Origin: Octopus vulgaris
Taxonomy: Eukaryota
DNA: 64,000 nucleotides
Assembly (NCBI GenBank): GCA_951406725.2
Contig: OX597814.1
Span: 128,154,001-128,218,000, forward strand
Direction of reading: 5' to 3'
The notes under the pieces are model-generated. The model worked only from the letters and a program-made list of their open reading frames with translations, was not told the DNA's origin and did no database searches. Shown in pieces: positions 4,621 to 61,689 of this stretch (its first letter is position 1; the number at the start of each line of letters is the position of its first letter). A program made the position numbers and the translations under genes.

Positions 4621-5663
4621 TAAATACAATGGTTAAATAAATACAAGCACTATTTTGCATCTAGTTAACCTTTATTGCAGTAAATGAACCAAATACAACT
4701 GTCCTCAAATGAGGACTGCGGGTTAATATGGATTAACGCAAAATTTTGATAGGTTTTAATTTTTATGTCTTTAAAACAGGAAGTTTATATTATTGAACTG
4801 AGGGTTAACCTAAGACAAGTTGATATCAAAAGGGAATTGATAAAAAAAAATGCATTTTCTAAATAATATTTTAAGAAATAAAAAAAATTAAATTCATAAT
4901 AATTCTATCATTAAGACTGTGATTTAACCTCTTTTACTATATCTTTTACTTGTTTCAGTTATTGGATTGCAGTCATGCTGGGGCACCACATTGGAAAACT
5001 ACTGGCAGCAGTGGAATTCGAATCAACACCTCCGATAGACTGATACCTTAACCAGCACCTTAGATTTCTTGACCCCACTACTATTTGCTATCAAGAATGT
5101 TTGAAACGATAACCTGGAAATGAATTGTAGTTCAAGGAACTTACCTCATTTCAGTGTTGAATAGCAAATTCTTTGGTAAAATCCGATATTCTTTAACACA
5201 TTCTCTAATAACATTCATGCCATATAGTTTGATGATTAAATTGTGCAAAATATTTCAGATAGCAACTAACAGGTAAATCAAATGATAGAAGCTTACACCT
5301 GATACATTCATGAAATGCATATTTCAGAATTTTACATTAAATTTCATTGCGACAGAACACTGCGTTTAGCTATTTCCTTTCACACAATGGAACCACCTGA
5401 ATGACTATAGTATTTGTCTTTCCTTCTCACTCTGTGTCATCCCCCTCAACTCCACCAAGACTTCCTCTACAGATTACAATCGTCTTTTCCTTAAACTCTT
5501 GAGTTAATCCATGTATTGTCTAAGTGTAGAAATTGTTCTGCCTCTGGATGTCACGTACTGGGTGTGTACACAATGTGAACAGTCTAGGTTAACCATTGTT
5601 ATGAGATATTGATATGTGTAGTTGTTTGCTGTCTGCACAGACTCATGTTTACATGACAGAAGG

Positions 5664-6540: not shown

Positions 6541-6617
6541 ATAACAATATTAATGTATTAGGGAGATGTACTTGCATAGCGAGTGACTTAATCTGAGATC
6601 TTGTGCTGGAACGAAAA

Positions 6618-6885
6618 CAATTGCAGCATGGAAGGCGTTTATAAGCCATTTAGGAAACACACAAAACCGTTAGATTCACTTCAACATTTAAATTTAATTT
6701 GTCAAAATATTTTCGTCGCTTTGAGACCGCGACCTGTTCACTGACAAAATATTGTGCTGCACGACGTTTTGTCAGTGAACAGGTCGCGGTGTCAATATTT
6801 TGACAAATTAAATTTAAATGTTGAAGTGAATCTAACGGTTTTGTGTGTTTCTTAAATGGCTTATAAACACCTTCCACGCTGCAAT
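6618..6885. repeat. Long inverted repeat of a pLTR-like element (element starts ~6562)
   Basis: ~130-bp arms reading as reverse complements; sister foldback at 31189-31470. Confidence 0.9.
6698..6748 (-). ncRNA. Minimal type I hammerhead-like motif, G3-C8 core variant
   Basis: UUUGUCA GUGAACA G GUCGC ggucucaaa GCGAC GAA AAUAUU U UGACAAA. Confidence 0.6.
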
Positions 6886-7799
6886 ATTGATGTATTTCCA
6901 CTATAAGTCAACACTTTCTATTGGAAGATATATAAAGGAAGCTACAACTTCACTGAGAATATTTTTCTCTACACTGTATATCATTTTGACCTGGCTATTT
7001 ACAATGCTTGTTAGATGACTACAAGAAAAAAAAGTATACTTTTCTGTCATGTGACCAAGAAACTTTCTCCTCTTCTAAAGTTGTTGATGAGTTTTTTTTT
7101 ATTTCTTTAACAAAAGGATTTCTTCCAACTTTATGGAATACTTCTACTTATTATTCTTCAACTAGATGATTCTGTAAATAGCATTACCACCAATAAAACT
7201 ATCATAATTACAATTCATTTTGCTTCCAGCTCCACACAACACACAAACAGCAAAACATCTTTTGAACTCCCCTTTTTATTGCAAAGTAATAAGGTTAACA
7301 ATTCTGACATGTCCTTTCCCTTATCCTCACCCAATATTCTTCAGAACTATTTATTATCCTCATGAAACTCTGAAATATTTAATCTCCTGGGATCCTACTG
7401 CATCAGAGTATCTCTTACTCTTGATAATCTCATCGAAAACAATAGTGCTGCTCCTGACTTAGCAAAGCCCTCAAACTTATCTGACTTATTAATTCCTTTG
7501 TTAACTTCCTTACCAATCATCTCTTAATAGGAAGGTTTCTTGTAGAATCAGTCAGTTACATCAAGCATCGATAACACTCTCTCTTCCCATATTTTATTAA
7601 CCAGGGTCTCAAGTTTATTTCTCATAATTTACTTCTGTACATTAATAGCATTATCACTTCTACTTCTAATAACTCACACTCCTATGAAGATAACAAGCTT
7701 TCATTTATTATTTTCCCCACATAGTCATTATCCTTAAATCCTTAAATCCTTAAAAATGTTTCAGCCCAAAAGCTGCAGCCATGCTGGGGCACCACTGTT

Positions 7800-7990
7800 G
7801 AATGAGCTACACTAGTATGTGAATCCACCTTTGATACGTGGCACTTGATCAACAAGGGAGTTCGATGCCGCTGCCTGCATCTGTGTTTCCTGCTGAGAGG
7901 TAGGTTCATCTGGAACCCCTGACAAGAAGAGATCCAGTTTAGTTTCAAAGAAACCCAAGAAATCCATATACAATCTCGACATTTCATGGA
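7800..7990 (-). mobile_element. CR1/L2-group LINE C-terminal fragment
   Basis: KLDLFLSGVPDEPT...AAASNSLVDQ is a recurrent C-terminal motif of invertebrate CR1-group ORF2. Confidence 0.6.
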
Positions 7991-8249
7991 AGACCAACAC
8001 TGCTTCTATGAACAGTGATCTTGAAAGCATTCTCCAATAGAGTTATGACAATCTTGCCTTCTTTAGCAGCACTAAAGCTCAAATTGTAAACATATCAAGG
8101 AACTCAACCATCTCTAGTCATGTACAACTAAAATCTTGAGAATTTATACAAATGCCAAGTTCCACAGAATCTAATGATTTTTAATAGTGACTTCACATAC
8201 ATAACATTGCCAACATTTAAATGCTACAGACTAGGTAACCTCTTCCAAA

Positions 8250-31046: not shown

Positions 31047-31732
31047 CTGGAATAAACAAACAAATTAATCATAACTTCATCTCTTTGTATTATGGCAGTG
31101 TCAACTAAACTTAGCTTCCTATGGCTGAAAATGAGTTTTTCTCATATGATGTAATTTGTGGAAAATAAATCTACTTGTTTTTTTTTACGGAGATGTACTT
31201 GCATAGCAAGTGATTTGATCTGAGATCGTGTGCTGAAACAAAAACAATTGCAGCGTGGAAGGTGTTTGTAAGCCATTTAAGAAACACACAAAAGCTGTTC
31301 GATTCACTTCAACATTTAAGTTTAATTTGTCAAAATTTTCATTCGATTCACTTCAACATTTAAGTTTAATTTGTCAAAATTTTGACAAATTAAACTTAAA
31401 TGTTGAAGTGAATCGAACGGCTTTTGTGTGTTTCTTAAATGGCTTACAAACACCTTCCACGCTGCAATTCTATTTGTAATTGATTTCAAATTTTGGCACA
31501 AGGCCAGCAAGTTGGGGAAAGGGATGAGTTGATTACAGTGGCCCCACTTATTCTATTGACCCTCAAAGGATAAAAGGCAAAGCCAACCTAGTTGTGAATT
31601 GAACTCAGAACATTAAGACAGATGAAATGCTGCTAATGATTTTTGCCTCGTGTGCCAATGATTCAGCCACTTCACTGCCTTGAATCTACTAATAATTAAG
31701 AATAATAATGCCTAGTTATAGGAGGTTAATAC

Positions 31733-40736: not shown

Positions 40737-43700
40737 CATCATCATCATTTAACGTCCGCTTTCCATGCTAGCATGGGTTGGACGGTTCAACTGGGGTCTG
40801 GGGAGCCCGAAGGCTGCACCAGGCCAGTCAGATCTGGCAGTGTTTCTACAGCTGGATGCCCTTCCTAACGCCAACCACTCCGAGAGTGTAGTGGGTGATT
40901 TTATGTGCCACCGACACAGGTGCCAGACGAGGCTGGCGAACGGCCACGCTCGGATGGTGTTTTTATGTGCCACCGACACAGGTGCCAGACAAGGCTAGCA
41001 GACGACCACGCTCGGATGGTGTTTTTTATGTGCCACCGACACAGGAGCCAGATGAGGCTGGCGATCGGCCACGATCGGATGGTGATTGTTACGTGCCCAC
41101 AGCATGGAGGCCAGTCGGTGCGAAACTGGCTACGGCCATGTTCGGATGGTTTTCTCGTGTGCCACCTGTATATTTGTACCACAAAGATACAAATTCCATT
41201 GATGTTCATCTATTTTGATTTTGTTTGATTTTTGATTTTTGATTTGATTTTCACTTGCCTCAACAGGTCTTCACAAGTGTCACAAGAAGGAAGGTATGCA
41301 CAGGTGGACTGACTACGTCCCAGGTAGGGGCCACGATTTCGGGCACGTCTGGGCGGCGGAGCAACGGGCGACCGTGCTAGCCGCAGTTTGCCATCTTTCG
41401 TGTTTTTACGGGACGCACCACTAGTCTTGCCGGGTCTTCTCACGCACAGCATACTTCCATAGGTCTCGGTCTCTAGTCATTTCCTTGGTGAGACCTAAAG
41501 TTCGAAGGTCGTGCTTCACCACTTCGTCCCAGGTTTTCCTGGGTCTACCTCTTCCACAGGTTCCCTCAACTGCTAGGGTGTAGCACTTTTGCACACAACT
41601 ATCTTCAGCCATTCTCGTCACGTGACCATACCAGCGCAGCCGTCTCTCTTGCACACCACAACTGACGCTTCTTAGGTTCAACTTTTCTCTCAAGGTACTT
41701 ACACTCTGACGATTATGAACACTGACATTACACATCCATCGGAGCATACTGGCTTCATTTCTTGCGAGCTTACGCATGTCCTCAGCAGTCACGGCCCATG
41801 TTTCACTGCCATGTAGCATGGCAGTTCGTACACATGCATCATACAGTCTGCCTTTTATTCTGAGCGAGAGGCCTTTTGTCACCAGCAGAGGTAAGAGCTC
41901 TCTAAACTTTGCCCAGGCTATTCTTACTCTAGCAGTTACACTTTCAGCACACCCACCCCTGCTACTGACTTGGTCTCCGAGGTAACGGAAGCTATCAACT
42001 ACTTCTAGTTTGTCTCCCTGGAATGTAGTAGAAGTTGGTCTCTGCACGTTTCCAGAGTTTATTTCTCCTGAGCATCTGCCACATACGAAAACTATCTTCC
42101 CAGTTAGCCTACCTTTGACATTGCTGCACCTCTTATGTGTCCATAGCTTACACTTGGTGCACCTTATAGAGTTTCTACCTACACCTTTTTTACAGATCGA
42201 GCAGGGCCATCTACCTGAAGTCGTTTGTGGTTGGTCCACCTTCCTACTTATTAGGACTTCGGTTTTGGCAAGGTTGATTCTAAGGCCCTTCGATTCTAAT
42301 CCATGTTTCCACACCTGAAACTTCTCCTCCAGTTCTGATAGTGACTCAGCAATTAGAGCAAGGTCATCAGCATAGAGGAGCTCCCAGGGGCATCCTGTCT
42401 TGAATTCTTCCGTTATTGCCTGGAGGACTATGATAAATAGGAGGGGGCTGAGGACTGAACCTTGGTGGACCCCAACCTCTACCTGGAATTCTTCACTGTA
42501 CTCGTTGCCTACCCTCACCTTACTAGCAGCGTCTCTGTACATGGCTCGCACAGCTCTCACTAACCATTCATCTATCCCTAGTTTCCTCATTGACCACCAG
42601 ATAAGGGATCGGGGGACCCTGTCAAAGGCTTTCTCCAAGTCAACAAAAGCCAGGTACAAGGGCTTACCTTTGGCTAGGTATTTCTCCTGCAGCTGTCTTA
42701 CCAGGAATATAGCATCAGTAGTACTTTTCCCTGGCACGAACCCAAACTGCATATCATCTAAGCTAACTCTCTCTCTAATTAATTGGGCTATAACCCTCTC
42801 CGTAACCTTCATTACCTGATCCAACAGCTTGATGCCCCTGTAGTTATTTGTATCTAGGGCGTCACCTTTACCTTTGTAGCAGTTGACTATTATGCTGCTA
42901 CACCAGTCATTGGGTATGACTCCTTCGTGTATCACCTGGTTAACTATACGGGTGACTATGCTATAGCCGACACTACCAGATATTTTGAGCATCTCTGCAG
43001 TAATTCCTGATGGGCCTGGGGCTTTCCCTGTCTTCATGCTTCTAATTGCCTTAGCTACCACGGAACTATCAACTCAGATAGCTGGTCCCTCTGTTGGGTC
43101 AACATTCGGCAGACTCTCTTTATCCCATTCATTTTCCTCATTCAGCAACCTTTCATAGTGGCGTCTCCAAGCCTCTCTCTTTGCATCCTCATTTAGCGCA
43201 AGTGAACCGTCATCCTTGCGAACACATTTCTCTCCTACCACATCACGATTCTCTCTCACACACTGTCTTGCAACACAAAATACCTCAAGTCTTTCATCCT
43301 CACGGCGCAGGACATTGGCAAATTTTCTCTTATCTGCTTCCCCTCTGGCTAGATAGACCTGTCTCCTAGCTTCCCTTCTGGCAGTCTGATACACTTCCCT
43401 GCTACCCCCGTTCTTCCAAGCCTTCCAAGCCTGTTTCTTTTGTCTAATAGCCCAGTCAACAATATTGTTCCACCACCACGTTATTTTGGGTCTTAAAGGG
43501 ACTTTGCACCAGCCACAGATCTGGTCAGTGGCTTTCAGCAGGTTGTCCCTCAGAAGCGTCCAGTTGTCTTCTACCCCATGCATAGCTATACCCCCTTCCA
43601 TTTCGTCAAAGGCTTCAAGTAACATGTCTCTAAATCTCTGTCCATTCGCAGGGTCTTTAAGCTTCCAGACCCTTCTTCTCCATGTTGGTCGTCTTCTAGT

Positions 43701-44399
43701 CGCCCTCTTATTCCTGAACCTAAAGTCACTAACTACCAGTCTATGTTGTGGGGTGCATTCTTCGCCTGGGAAGGTTTTGGCATTTATAAGCAGCCATCTT
43801 TCCCTTTTACTGGCAAGGATGTAGTCGATTTGGCTAGTATGCCGGCCCGATCGGTAGGTGACCAGGTGGCTTGTTGGTTTCCTGAAGTTAGTGTTGCAGA
43901 CTATAAGACTATTCGCATCGCAGAACTCCAGCAGCCTGGTTCCCTCCTCGTTGCGGGAACCATAACCGTAGCCTCCATGTACGCCATGGAAGCCCCCAGC
44001 ATGTCGTCCAACATGCCCATTGAAATCACCAGCCACAAAGAGAAGGTCCCTGTCGTTCGTCAATGAGGTGGTCTGCAGTAGGGTGTCATAGAAACTGTCT
44101 TTCTGTCCATCGGGTAGCCCTGGCTGAGGGGCATAGGCCGATATAATGGTTGCTAATCTATTATGAAGCACTATTCTAATCTTAAGTATTCTGTCACATA
44201 CTCTGATTACCTCAATTACTCTATCTACCTATTTCTCAGCAATAAGTATACCCACACCACCAACCCCGTCAGTGTTCCCTGCCCAGAAAATCTTGTACCT
44301 GTGTTCCTTGCCTATGAGGAACCTAGCAGATCCTCCTCTCCACCTTATTTCTTGCATGCAACATACATCAACACGTCTCCGTTCAAGCATCTCGACTAT
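40737..44399 (-). mobile_element. Near-complete RTE-clade LINE, 5'-truncated within the APE domain
   Basis: APE motifs (MQE, SAYAPQ, GDFNGHVG, SQIDYIL, QHRLV) and RT motifs (QFGF, FVDLEKAFD, GVHQGSVLSP, YADD); 3'UTR with ~60-bp tandem units and an (ATG)n tail. Confidence 0.95.
41421..44399 (-). pseudogene. RTE APE-RT ORF with a Cys/His-rich insert; one reading frame broken by two stops
   Basis: ORFs 44229-44426, 43074-44171 and 41421-43061 share a frame; TAG at 44229-44231 and TGA at 43074-43076. Confidence 0.9.
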
Positions 44400-44717
44400 G
44401 TAACAATAAGTTACATAAATGTTCAACTTGACATTGGTTATTGATTATATGTTATTGGAGACTTTTTTTTTGCAACAATTCAAAAAATTATGATCACAAC
44501 TAAAAGAGAGAATTTACACCTCAGGAATTTCTGCACAGTAAAGTAAAGATTATCAGCACAGTTATAATTGTATAGTCAGAAGTAAGGTGGTCTTGATATA
44601 TTTTGAGATCTGCTTGAGGTTGTATGGTCTAGTATAATATCCACTAGTTTATGTCCAATATTTTGGAGCAAAAACTCTAGTTTGCTCAGGTTAAGGTACA
44701 GAGATGCAGCTCGGAAT

Positions 44718-44768
44718 TTTGTCAGTGAACAGGTTGCGGTCTCAAAGTGATGAAAATATTTTGACAAA
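44718..44768 (+). ncRNA. Second G3-C8 hammerhead-like motif with CpG-decayed stem II
   Basis: Same family as 6698-6748; element spans ~44700-44905. Confidence 0.5.
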
Positions 44769-45959
44769 TTAAATTTAAATGTTGAAGTGAATCTAACAGT
44801 TTTTGTGTGTTTCTTAAATGGCTTATAAACACCTTCCATGCTGCAACTGTTTTCGTTCCAGCACAAGATCTCAGATCAAGTCACTTGCTATGCAAGTACA
44901 TCTCCGTAACACAGATTAATAGTTATTAGGAAATACTTTAATGTTTTCATCCACAACTTAAAACTCTTGTCTCATTGACAAGATTATCCTGCCTATTTGG
45001 ATTCAATGATTGATAATTTTTTTAATTGATTAAAGTAAACTATGTGGAACTTTGTTTTAATTAATTTAAAAGTTACTAATTACTGAATCAAATGTACAGG
45101 ATTGTCACACCAGATGAATTTAGCATTCTGACAAACTCTCCTTACTACTGTAAGATTTTTAAGTCATGGAGAAGAACTACCTTGTTCTTACATATTAGGC
45201 CTAATGCAGTAGTCATTATACAAGATTGTACAAATATTTTAATGCTTTAAAATGGTTAGAAGTTTATGGAAAAACAACCCAATTAAATATATGACAGACA
45301 CCTTTTGTCTATATGATATCAAAAGCTTTATGAATAATAAAAAAAATTTCTTCTGAATTTAATTGTATTAGCTTATAACTAAGAATTTATAGCAATAATG
45401 GCTGAAGAAATATCTTTAATACAAGGAATACATACTGGTTTCAAATTTTGGCACAGAGCAAGTAATTGACCTCAGTGCTCAACAGTACATATGTTGTCAA
45501 TCCCAAAAGGATGAAAGACTAGGTTGACCTTGGCGGAATTTGAATACAGAACATTAAGACAGACAACATGCTGCTAAGCATTTTGCCTAGCATGCTAATG
45601 ATTCTGCCAGCTCACCATTTTATACATGGAATACTTATTAAAACCAGACTGCTAGAGTGCAAATCTTTAACAGTGGATAGTACCATCGAAGAGGATAGAT
45701 CTCAGGAGCAAATTTGACCAGAATCATATAAAATGCTTCTTCCTGGAGTCCTTCTGATGTTAACAAATAGAAAAGAAGTAAATATCAGTTTCTGCTACAG
45801 TAAATCCTAAAACCTGGTGAACATGAGGAGGAACCACAAGAAAATCTAAGGGCCATGACTTTTATTACACATAAGGAGGGCTTATCATAGAAGATATACT
45901 GAATTTTTAATAAACATATATACCAATGTTGAAAAATACTATATACTTTACTTTTTTTA

Positions 45960-58265: not shown

Positions 58266-59589
58266 TATATTTTATTTATTTACTTTTTCTTGAATCGTTT
58301 TTTTTTTTGTCTGATTGAGTGAGAGAGAAAGAGAGGTGTGTTTTGCTCTGTGTGTATGTGTGTGAGTGAGAGAGCAGGACAGAGTGATAGCGTAATTTTT
58401 ATTTATTTAGTTTTTCTCGCTTCTTTTTTTAGTGTGAGTGATTGGCTGAGAGAAAGAGAGAGAGGTGTTGTTATGTATGTGTAAAACGGCTCACACACAC
58501 ACAGAGCAACACACACAACACACACTTTTTGTCTTGCACCCCCATCAACACATACACATGTCCCTATCAATTTTCTCTCTCTTTCACTTTATGCTAACAT
58601 CAAACGAAATGTACATTTCCAGCCACAAAAATAAATAAATAAATAAATTTTTACGGAATTTACCGAACGCGTATGGTAACAGTTAAGCTGCGCACGCACC
58701 TACGAGTCAAAACGAAAGATTGCCAATTATATATTTAATATAAAAGATACAATTATATGAAATATGGGTAAATTTTTAGCCGTCTCACAAGATGGGTGTA
58801 ATCTCTGATCAGCAGATTTTCGGAATCGTTATCAGTAACTTATAGAGAAGAGTAAAGAATTGGGTGGGTATTACCTTTTACGAAAGAAATTTTTTGCTCC
58901 AAAAATTAAATTTTTTGTAACCCTCACTACTAATTCCGTGTCCTTTTCTGGTAAATGTTTCTATCTGTTTCATGAAACGGTTGCAATAGTAAAAAAAAAA
59001 TAAAATATCTCGAAATATATGTAACACCAATAATATTGCCTGAGCTAATGTAACAGCGACTTCTCTTAATCATGCTTGCAAAAGTAATAAGGAAACTATA
59101 AGACAAAGTTTCTAGTTATGCACATTTCATATTTCGTCAAAGTTTTTAAAAAAAGCCTGATACAGTCACTATCATATTCTTTTCTACTCTAGGCACAAGG
59201 CCCGAAATTTTTTGGGAGGGGGCCAGTCGATTAGATCGATCCAGTGCACAACTGGTACTTAATTTGTCAACCCCGAACTTTTAAAAACATGATTAAATAT
59301 ATATATATATATAGGGATGGGGAACAAAATTAGTAACAGGGGTAAAATGAGTAATTTTCGAATTGTTATTTTCTCTCTACCTGTTTGAAATCTGTTGCAT
59401 CATAGACACAGCTATTGCATCATTGTGTTTGTGCTGTTATATAATCTTTAAGTGTAGAAATTTGTCAGAATAATTGCTGAAGTCGAGAGAGTTTGGAGAT
59501 TTATCCGTGGAAAAAAATAAAGTGAAAAAAGAGAAGAAAAAGGAACAGAAAAATCATGCCGTAAAGTTTATGTAACTGATTGCTTAAAG

Positions 59590-61190
59590 ACGTCAAACTG
59601 AGACCTATAATAGCAGGTACCGCATGTGAAACCCACCACCTCAGTAACTTTTTAGATACCCTCTTAAAACCATTCCTCAAGCATGTCAAAAGCTACATAT
59701 GGGACGACCTGGATATGATCAATCACCTTCCTGAAACAATAAACAAAATCACCCTACTAGTATCCTTCAATGTAGTCAACCTCTATTCCAATATCCCCCA
59801 CAAACTAGGAATAGAAGCAATTCAATTCTGGTTAGAGAATTACACCAACGAACTCCCACATCACATCAAGAAAGAATTCGAGATAGAAGGGCTAAAATTC
59901 GTCTTGGAGAATAACTACTTTGTCTTCATCTCATCATCATCATTTAACGTCCGCTTTCCATGCTAGCATGGGTTGGACGGTTCAACTAGGGTCTGGGGAG
60001 CCCGAAGGCTGCACCAGGCCAGTCAGATCTGGCAGTGTTTCTACAGCTGGATGCCCTTCCTAACGCCAACCACTCCGAGAGTGTAGTGGGTGATTTTATG
60101 TGCCACCGACACAGGTGCCAGACGAGGCTGGCGAATGGCCACGCTCGGATGGTGTTTTTATGTGCCACCGACACAGGTGCCACAAAAATCGATGACTGCA
60201 ATGGGTACGAGAATGGACCCTTCCTCTGCTAACCTAGTCATGGGATATCTAGAAATCAGTTTTTATTGTAAGGTGCTAGAAAAATACGGCAGCCAAATTC
60301 TCCCTCTACATAGAAAATAACTGGAAGAGATACCTGGATGACTGTTTCATTCTTTGGCATGAAATTATAGAGGGACTTCAAGAATTTCAAGCACTTATAA
60401 ATGGACTTGACGTAAACATTCAATTCACGATGGAATATAGCCATCAACAACTTTCCTTCCTCAACATCCTCATTAAAAAATCTGACAACGTAATAGAAAC
60501 AGATATATACTATAAGTCCATGGACTCCAAGCAATATCTACCGTTCAACTCATGCCACCCCAGACACACCAGAATGAATATTCCCTTCAACCTAGTAAAA
60601 AAGATATGCACTATAGTTTCTCATGCAAGCACCAGGAACATACGGCCACATAAACTAAAGGATACACTCATCACCAGGAACTACTCATCTTCACTAATTG
60701 ACATATGCTTTCAACATGCCCGACAACTCAACATCCACAAACTCAGACTTCTCAAATTAAAGAAGGATTTACAACCAAAAGCCCTACCATATATCTCCAC
60801 ATACAACTCTCTTAACAATGAAGCCTTTGACACCATCCTTCAAAACATTCCCCTGCTAAAAATGGACCACAGAATGAACTTAATCCTCCAAACACACACC
60901 ATCATAAAAAGCAAGAGACAGCCTAAATCTATGAAAAGTCTCCTAACACAAGCTGAACAACAACACTGAAGCCGTCAGTAAAAGAAATGTGGAAGACCCA
61001 ACTGTGGGATATGTTTCGATTTAATTGAGGGATCAGAATTCTCCTTCAAACAGGGACAATGTTTCGCAGTGAAAAGCAGCTTTGCATGTGCTTCGGAGAA
61101 CCTGATATATGCACTAACCTGCTCTGGGTGTCAAGAGCGATACATAGGCCAAACAAAAACAGTCTACGTCAAAGGATGGCTCTGCACAGA
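59590..61190 (+). mobile_element. Degraded Penelope-like element (RT plus start of the GIY-YIG endonuclease)
   Basis: LRPIIAG, LYSNIPH, AMGT, RYLDD, TDIYYKS, SCHPRH, CGRPNCGIC, NLIYALTCSGCQERYIGQT. Confidence 0.9.
59927..60183 (-). mobile_element. Young RTE 3' fragment inserted into the Penelope RT
   Basis: Nearly identical to 40737-40990. Confidence 0.9.
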
Positions 61191-61689
61191 TATATGTATA
61201 TGTATGTATATATATATGTATGTATGTGTGTGTGTGTATCTGTGTTTGTCCCCCCAACATCGCTTCACAACCGATGCTGGTGTGTTTACGTCCCCATAAC
61301 TTAGCGGTTCGGCAAAAGAGACCGATAGAATAAGTACTAGGCTTCCAAAGAATAAGTTCTGGGGTTGATTTGCTTGACTAAAGGTGGTGCTCCAGCATGG
61401 CCACAGTCAAATGACTGAAACAAGTAAAAGATTAAAAGAGTAAAAGAGAGCTGTAATGTTGGGAAGAGGGAAAATATTGTTTTTCCTTTTTTATTTTTAA
61501 TGTTGTCTGTTATATTTAATTTGTTAAGTGAGCAGTAAATATGTGACTGACTGTTTCTTTTCAAAGATATATTTAACCAGCCTGGCTCTAGTCGTCTAAC
61601 AACTTTATTATGTCTGTACTCCTCAATTTACTCAAGAGCTTGTTTGAATGCTCACTGATAGAAACATAATTATGTTTGATAACGTTTTG

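What the first reader, a model, noticed from the sequence alone, without database searches (positions are those of the whole stretch)
6562..6885. Foldback repeat family carrying a G3-C8 (GUGAACA) hammerhead
Seen: the minus strand 6748-6698 reads UUUGUCA-GUGAACA-G-GUCGC(ggucucaaa)GCGAC-GAA-AAUAUU-U-UGACAAA, giving a 7-bp stem I, 5-bp stem II, palindromic helix III and a UUU site. The family recurs at 31189-31470 (foldback, motif deleted) and 44700-44905 (single copy, same core). The opposite arm here (6767-6805) has lost the 3' side of stem II and the GAAA. The G3-C8 swap is known as an engineered rescue mutant; I am not sure how often it has been reported in nature. The intact motif is sense to the host gene but downstream of its predicted poly(A) site.
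Basis: partly seen in the sequence, partly recalled or inferred. Interest (0 to 1): 0.75.

Follow-up and report, generated by a model that had tools for sequence, protein, structure and literature searches.

The report
Swapped-core hammerhead in Penelope retrotransposon ends
The end of a very common jumping gene carries a "hammerhead"-shaped RNA whose two paired core letters are swapped, a swap I found in print only as a laboratory rescue mutant; it likely still cuts itself slowly, but this is untested, and this particular copy is predicted to be folded shut.

Summary
Window 6562-6885 is a 5'-truncated, folded-back end (pseudo-LTR) of a Penelope-like retrotransposon. I found the partner: RT plus GIY-YIG frame between two direct repeats (L166). 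The minus strand at 6748-6698 folds as a minimal type I hammerhead with G3-C8 in place of C3-G8. This is the family state: 5,777 exact genome matches, against 514 changed at position 3 or 8. Related elements carry C3-G8 or U3-A8 at the same place; over 6 aligned motifs 71 of 72 cells pair and 10 of 12 pairs change on both sides. The tree makes G3-C8 derived. Against efficient cutting: a UUU site, only 2 of 119 arms begin at the cut site, and 204 unpaired G3-G8 matches. Here the inverted arm is predicted to sequester the motif, and the host-gene claim is unverified. Hammerheads in these elements and natural U3-A8 are published; nine paper searches showed no natural G3-C8, with four key papers not held. 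The scan noted this family before, elsewhere in this genome (e1-8667090). Verdict: new variant of a known kind, activity untested.

The parts
6562..6761 (-). Sense arm: 3' pseudo-LTR fragment of the Penelope-like element, with tail
   Evidence: 94.5% identical over 200 nt to family copy L029; same sequence flanks the RT-GIY-YIG frame twice in L166
6698..6748 (-). Minimal type I hammerhead motif: stem I 6748-6742 with 6704-6698; G3 6741, C8 6736, A9 6735, extra G 6734; stem II 6733-6729 with 6719-6715; G12-A14 6714-6712; palindromic helix III 6711-6706; predicted cut between 6705 and 6704
   Evidence: sequence, fold, pair counts on related motifs
6562..6649 (-). First 29-30 codons of the element's reading frame (starts MAYK), ending at the tail end
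   Evidence: continues into the long frame in L166 and aligns at 38% identity with the N-terminus of the intact family C protein
6562..6619 (-). Tail (about 58 nt) present on the sense arm only
   Evidence: two 3' end classes among 119 arms; 34 of 40 two-strand insertions have one tailed and one short arm
6755..6885 (+). Inverted 5' arm without tail; core kept (6775-6781) but 3' side of stem II and most of GAAA replaced at a junction into the palindrome
6545..6559 (+). Left copy of a likely target-site duplication (14 of 15 nt match the right copy)
6882..6896 (+). Right copy of the likely target-site duplication; first 4 nt overlap the short end of the element
31189..31477 (.). Second fold-back insertion of the family; both arms begin inside helix III, no core
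44702..44905 (+). Third copy, single arm with tail; G3-C8 core at 44725-44731, stem II decayed

Best explanation
The stretch is a truncated, folded-back terminal repeat of a Penelope-like retrotransposon that carries a hammerhead-shaped RNA motif with G3-C8 in place of C3-G8, and the motif likely self-cleaves only slowly, as a dimer or with help from the element's own protein. Shown: the family, its RT-GIY-YIG partner, the fixed swap, and paired changes across related elements. Inferred: the swap arose once, from C3-G8, on the branch to this family; selection acts on the source elements and keeps the fold and the 3-8 pair; the palindromic helix III is formed between two copies. Inferred for this locus: reverse transcription began at the tail end of an uncut RNA, stopped about 13 nt upstream of stem I, and an inverted second piece was added; the two arms would pair into a long hairpin, so this copy is predicted to be inactive and without a host role.
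For: Partner: walking upstream from family copies reaches a GIY-YIG and RT frame; L166 has the motif at 4742 and 9003 as direct repeats around the frame; GIY-YIG scores 25.4 bits against a cut-off of 22.6. Fixed swap: 5,777 exact matches of a 20-mer with G3-C8, 175 with another base at 3, 339 with G3 and another base at 8; none of the 100 listed non-G3 matches is C3-G8. No core change at 2% or more in 4 of 4 laid runs: one run each of organism labels A to D. Paired change: sister family C (54% protein identity) has C3-G8 at the homologous place before its start codon; metagenome relatives have U3-A8 (L176, L177) or C3-G8 (L175, L179). Over 6 aligned motifs 71 of 72 cells pair, 10 of 12 pairs change on both sides, 0 of 500 shuffles reach this, slid controls pair 19-48%. 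Tree: families A+B form one branch (SH-aLRT 100), sister to family C (98). Within the family, common polymorphisms hit 5 of 9 loop II sites but 1 of 42 stem and core sites, and that one keeps a U-G pair (Fisher p 0.0003). In the full-length context the stems fold with probability 0.996 and 0.93. In print, the C3G/G8C double mutant partly restores cleavage of a Penelope hammerhead, which cuts only with the element's protein (PMC11167929, section read); metazoan minimal hammerheads cut weakly and as dimers (PMC4209133, parts 1-2 read).
Against: No cleavage data. Only 2 of 119 arms start at the predicted cut site, both explained by the palindrome, while 49 of 119 start 8-19 nt upstream of stem I: inserted RNA was mostly uncut. 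The site is UUU, recalled as the weakest NUH triplet. G3-G8 matches number 204, about 3.5% of the intact count, against about 0.4% C-to-G at a control site with the same neighbours (11 of 100 listed among 184, on 5,465); in 2 of 6 loci with a second core both copies carry G8, so some unpaired cores may have been inserted as such. Against all other non-coding repeat sites (10 of 73 polymorphic) the protection of the motif is only borderline (p 0.054). The 6 rows were chosen because they looked like hammerheads and the structure was drawn by me; a seventh (L177) was dropped because MAFFT misaligned it. The tree is the quick version, and only 2 of its 4 family rows have an intact G3-C8 motif beside them (L157, L162; L155 has G3-G8, L161 a deletion). 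PMC11167929 found that catalytic mutants did not affect insertion in vitro.
Confidence: 0.6

Rival explanations
1. The fold is kept but no longer cuts: the hammerhead-shaped RNA serves as a binding, translation or reverse-transcription signal just upstream of the start codon, and the 3-8 pair is kept for shape alone.
For: Uncut templates dominate (2 of 119 arms at the cut site); UUU site; relatives carry further weakening changes (C9 in family C and L176, U15.1-A16.1 in L175); catalytic mutants did not affect insertion in vitro.
Against: U4, G5, A6, G12, A13, A14 are invariant in 6 of 6 aligned motifs and the 3-8 pair is Watson-Crick in 6 of 6; this pair is recalled as a feature of the active conformation. 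The double mutant is partly active in a Penelope hammerhead. Uncut templates also dominate for an element whose hammerhead does cut.
Confidence: 0.3
2. The motif is a relic: two independent substitutions happened to be complementary, and the sequence is kept only as part of a promoter or splice signal.
For: The 5' ends pile up at a site that resembles both a splice acceptor and an initiator just upstream of stem I; Penelope has an internal promoter and an intron in this region (PMC2377424, passages). Protection against all other non-coding sites is borderline (p 0.054).
Against: Both positions changed to a complementary pair while stems I, II and III also changed in pairs; loop II varies freely between subfamilies while the stems do not.
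Confidence: 0.07
3. This copy was co-opted to end or trim the transcript of a neighbouring host gene.
For: A possible last exon and poly(A) signals lie 350-1,300 nt upstream on the same strand.
Against: The inverted arm is upstream on that strand and pairs with the motif; predicted probability of stem II about 1e-10. The copy is one of thousands and 94.5% identical to another family copy. The host gene is not identified.
Confidence: 0.03

Closest known systems
Minimal type I hammerheads in pseudo-LTRs of metazoan Penelope-like elements (Cervera and de la Pena 2014, PMC4209133; parts 1-2 of 4 read)
   Same: Place in the terminal repeat, unpaired base between 9 and 10.1, G10.1-C11.1 pair, short palindromic helix III, many scattered single or opposite-strand copies, a likely splice acceptor close to stem I.
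   Different: Core pair is G3-C8; the parts read report C3-G8 and one U3-A8 variant only. Cut site is UUU.
Natural U3-A8 hammerhead core variants (Perreault et al. 2011, PMC3088659; section on core variation read)
   Same: Compensatory change of the 3-8 pair in nature.
   Different: There both changes are transitions keeping pyrimidine 3 and purine 8; here both are transversions, placing a pyrimidine at 8. The section text names no G3-C8; its figures and supplements were not seen.
Engineered C3G/G8C rescue mutant of the Anolis Poseidon element PAc hammerhead (PMC11167929; passages and part 2 of main text read)
   Same: Same base swap, in a Penelope-type hammerhead near the start codon; tail defined by two reverse-transcription start sites.
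   Different: Engineered and only partly active there; here it is the fixed natural state of a family with thousands of copies.
Neptune clade of Penelope-like elements (Craig et al. 2021, PMC8557442; passages read)
   Same: RT with C-terminal GIY-YIG, Cys-rich linker, partial tandem and inverted 5' copies, tail, insertion into (TA)n.
   Different: Tail about 58 nt rather than 30-40; clade placement not tested against named references.

Membership tests
Minimal type I hammerhead of metazoan PLEs | Literal CUGANGA core (C3, G8) | tested here: not met
   G3 and C8 in the window and in 5,777 genome matches; filed as a core variant, not as a canonical-core member
Minimal type I hammerhead of metazoan PLEs | Watson-Crick pair between positions 3 and 8 | tested here: met
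   6 of 6 aligned motifs pair: C-G 3, G-C 2, U-A 1
Minimal type I hammerhead of metazoan PLEs | U4 G5 A6, A9, G12 A13 A14, A15.1-U16.1, G10.1-C11.1 | tested here: met
   all present at 6740-6706 and the majority base in the aligned arms
Minimal type I hammerhead of metazoan PLEs | Stems I and II, unpaired base after 9, short palindromic helix III | tested here: met
Minimal type I hammerhead of metazoan PLEs | NUH cleavage triplet | tested here: met
   UUU at 6707-6705; U17 also in family C, L175, L176
Minimal type I hammerhead of metazoan PLEs | Self-cleavage (monomer, dimer or protein-assisted) | not testable with these tools
   no raw RNA reads were offered; insertion ends give no pile-up at the cut site
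Rfam hammerhead families | Match to an Rfam covariance model | tested here: inconclusive
   no hammerhead hit in the window, but none either for relatives with a C3-G8 core, so the models miss this architecture
Endonuclease-bearing Penelope-like element | One frame with RT followed by C-terminal GIY-YIG | tested here: met
   GIY-YIG over the Pfam cut-off; RT motifs by inspection, no Pfam RT hit; frame broken in the family A and B copies examined, intact (1,309 aa) in family C
Endonuclease-bearing Penelope-like element | Direct pseudo-LTRs, inverted 5'-truncated copy, tail at one end | tested here: met
   L166; 40 of 80 regions with arms on both strands, 34 of these 40 with one tailed and one short arm
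Neptune clade | CX2-5CxxC linker between RT and endonuclease | tested here: met
   CxxxCxxC before the GIY-YIG in families B and C
Neptune clade | RT phylogeny with named Neptune, Nematis and Poseidon references | not tested
   the tree holds unnamed relatives only

The most novel reading that the evidence does not exclude
An active natural hammerhead with the reversed G3-C8 core, fixed in a retrotransposon family of thousands of copies shared by several species. Its clade has tried three of the four Watson-Crick pairs at the catalytic 3-8 position, so a double transversion crossed an inactive intermediate in nature because insertion does not need cutting, and the pair was then restored because the source element does.
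Probability: 0.45. Interest if true: 0.65.

Novelty: new variant of a known kind. Interest (0 to 1): 0.5.

Why it matters
If it cuts, it widens the natural hammerhead core: searches built on CUGANGA or UUGANAA miss whole families like this one, and evolution has independently made the swap used as a rescue control for the 3-8 pair. The set of homologous motifs (G-C, C-G, U-A) is a ready panel for the open question of what hammerheads do for Penelope-like elements: kept in paired form on long branches, yet most insertions come from uncut RNA. If it does not cut, it shows a ribozyme fold kept for a non-catalytic job. G3-C8 looks rare elsewhere: with one pattern in viral contigs, 1 of 32 G3-C8 matches folded as a full hammerhead, against 0 of 51 for an unpaired control and 70 of 80 listed C3-G8 matches.

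Tried and rejected
Rfam scan: no hammerhead hit, uninformative because C3-G8 relatives are missed too. Two matches 3.4 kb apart on C2 looked like a full element but are a segmental duplication (35-type scan). A GIY-YIG family search found other Penelope families (C3-G8 and U3-A8 motifs) but not this one. Idea that G3-G8 copies are an older intermediate subfamily: rejected; they sit on all loop backgrounds and are no more diverged than other single mutants (26 against 46 copies, p 0.44). Idea that the window's opposite arm was inactivated by selection: not needed; the junction falls in the palindrome and family arms break at many points. Sequencing runs: no RNA holder listed; contigs only, no GT-AG joint among those shown, so splice acceptor versus start site at the common 5' end stays open. 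Exact family 17-mer in viral contigs: 4 matches, none a hammerhead. Host gene: not identified. Of 14 metagenome loci, 4 showed a hammerhead after or before the frame; 10 showed none in the DNA held. Papers not held: Lunse et al. 2017, Przybilski and Hammann 2007, Martick and Scott 2006, Hammann et al. 2012. No supplements were read; those of PMC4209133 and PMC3088659 hold larger motif alignments that may bear on novelty.

Full report
Observation. A descriptor for a G3-C8 hammerhead finds 2 sites in the window and at most 1 in any of 100 locally shuffled windows (mean 0.01). The inverted arm, and the copies at 31.2-31.5 kb and 44.7-44.9 kb, are as described, with small corrections given under the observation check. 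A 15-nt flanking repeat with one mismatch is a likely target-site duplication. The host-gene remark could not be verified.

The family. The window lies in a 2.8-Gb animal genome; the nearest named protein hit is labelled Octopus vulgaris, so an octopus is inferred. A 20-mer spanning the core matches exactly 5,777 times with G3-C8, 175 times with another base at 3 and 339 times with G3 and another base at 8; none of the 100 listed non-G3 matches was C3-G8. In 80 regions picked by a pattern outside the hammerhead (from the 100 places listed), G3 stood in 72 of 78 and C8 in 69 of 78 arms that cover the core. The stretch is held by runs under four organism labels, and no core base differed at 2% or more in the 4 runs laid.

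The partner. Walking upstream from family copies passes 600-1,000 nt rich in simple repeats and reaches a GIY-YIG domain, a Cys-rich linker and an RT. L166 holds the motif twice, as direct repeats 4,261 nt apart around the frame; the frame starts about 55 nt after the predicted cut site, so the 3' end of each short copy is the first 30 codons. GIY-YIG passes the Pfam cut-off. Frames of the family A and B copies examined are broken; a sister family C (54% identity) has intact 1,309-aa frames. Half of the sampled regions (40 of 80) have arms on both strands, and 34 of these 40 have one arm with a tail of about 58 nt and one without. This is the inverted-copy and tail pattern described for Penelope-like elements (PMC8557442, passages; PMC11167929).

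Is the hammerhead real? At the homologous place family C has C3-G8. Of 14 metagenome relatives, four show a hammerhead: U3-A8 in L176 and L177, C3-G8 in L175 and L179. On six aligned motifs (L177 dropped, misaligned), 71 of 72 cells pair, 10 of 12 pairs change on both sides, and 0 of 500 shuffles reach this. The rows were chosen for their look and the structure was drawn from them, so the numbers overstate, but the 3-8 pair is Watson-Crick in all seven motifs, in three forms. A quick tree of 47 proteins puts families A and B together (100) as sister to family C (98), next to a branch holding L175: G3-C8 is most simply derived from C3-G8. Within the family, common polymorphisms occupy 5 of 9 loop II sites and 1 of 42 stem and core sites, that one keeping a wobble pair (p 0.0003); against all other non-coding sites the contrast is borderline (p 0.054).

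Does it cut? Not shown. For: the invariant catalytic bases; a clean fold in the full-length context (0.996 and 0.93); partial rescue by the same swap in the PAc hammerhead, which needs the element's protein. Against: the UUU site (recalled as the weakest triplet); 2 of 119 arms begin at the cut site while 49 begin 8-19 nt upstream of stem I; and 204 G3-G8 matches, about nine times the rate at a control site. These G3-G8 copies are spread over all subfamilies, are not older, and in 4 of 6 loci the second core still has C8, which fits a mutation hotspot better than a lineage; it stays unexplained. Uncut templates also dominate for PAc, so the end data limit the rate of cutting without excluding it. 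I put slow, dimer- or protein-dependent cutting at 0.6 and a non-cutting structural role at 0.3.

This locus. On the minus strand the inverted arm comes first and pairs with the sense arm in one long hairpin; the predicted probability of stem II is about 1e-10. A host role for this copy is therefore unlikely.

Known and new. Hammerheads in Penelope repeats, their dimer architecture and a natural U3-A8 variant are published (PMC4209133; PMC3088659). G3-C8 appears in what I read only as an engineered mutant. Nine searches showed no natural case; passages of PMC11014351, PMC6765202, PMC13725137, PMC13282606 and bioRxiv 10.64898/2026.07.22.740005 named none. Four key papers were not held and no supplements or figures were seen, so a prior record is not excluded.

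Verdict. A real, fixed, naturally swapped hammerhead core in the terminal repeat of a Neptune-like Penelope element: a new variant of a known kind, interest 0.5, activity untested.

Noticed in passing
L402:61-95 (minus; viral contig IMGVR_UViG_3300019776_000919): Lone candidate for a second natural G3-C8 hammerhead, with a 5-bp stem I, 4-bp stem II, 10-bp stem III and GUA site, between two frames; no relative found, and the minimum-energy fold keeps only stem III.
   Followed up: partly
L170:5885-5932 and L176:2490-2537: Family C (young, intact 1,309-aa frames) and L176 have C instead of the conserved A at position 9; L175:4966-5016 has U15.1-A16.1. This clade's hammerheads carry several core deviations.
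   Followed up: partly
genome-wide, position 8 of the motif (window 6736): C-to-G change at position 8 is about nine times more frequent than at a control site with the same neighbours (204 on 5,777 against about 20 on 5,465); not a subfamily, cause unknown.
   Followed up: partly
L166:4700-4725 and L029; window 44702 and 6761: Family 5' ends pile up at a site that resembles both a 3' splice site (branch point, pyrimidines, AG) and an initiator, just upstream of stem I; L175, L176 and L179 also have a pyrimidine run and AG at stem I.
   Followed up: partly
window 16178 (minus): Possible canonical C3-G8 hammerhead-like motif beside a degraded GIY-YIG-type sequence of another element.
   Followed up: no
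L071-L089, L171, L172: Other Penelope families in this genome carry U3-A8 or C3-G8 hammerheads; one family has many intact 781-aa frames.
   Followed up: no
window 41424-44444 (minus): Near full-length LINE-type element with endonuclease and RT frames (550 and 384 aa); family not tested.
   Followed up: no
window 59580-61296 (plus): Degraded RT and GIY-YIG frame of a different Penelope-like family.
   Followed up: no
window 7813-8042 (minus): Possible last coding exon of an unidentified host gene, followed by several AATAAA signals.
   Followed up: partly
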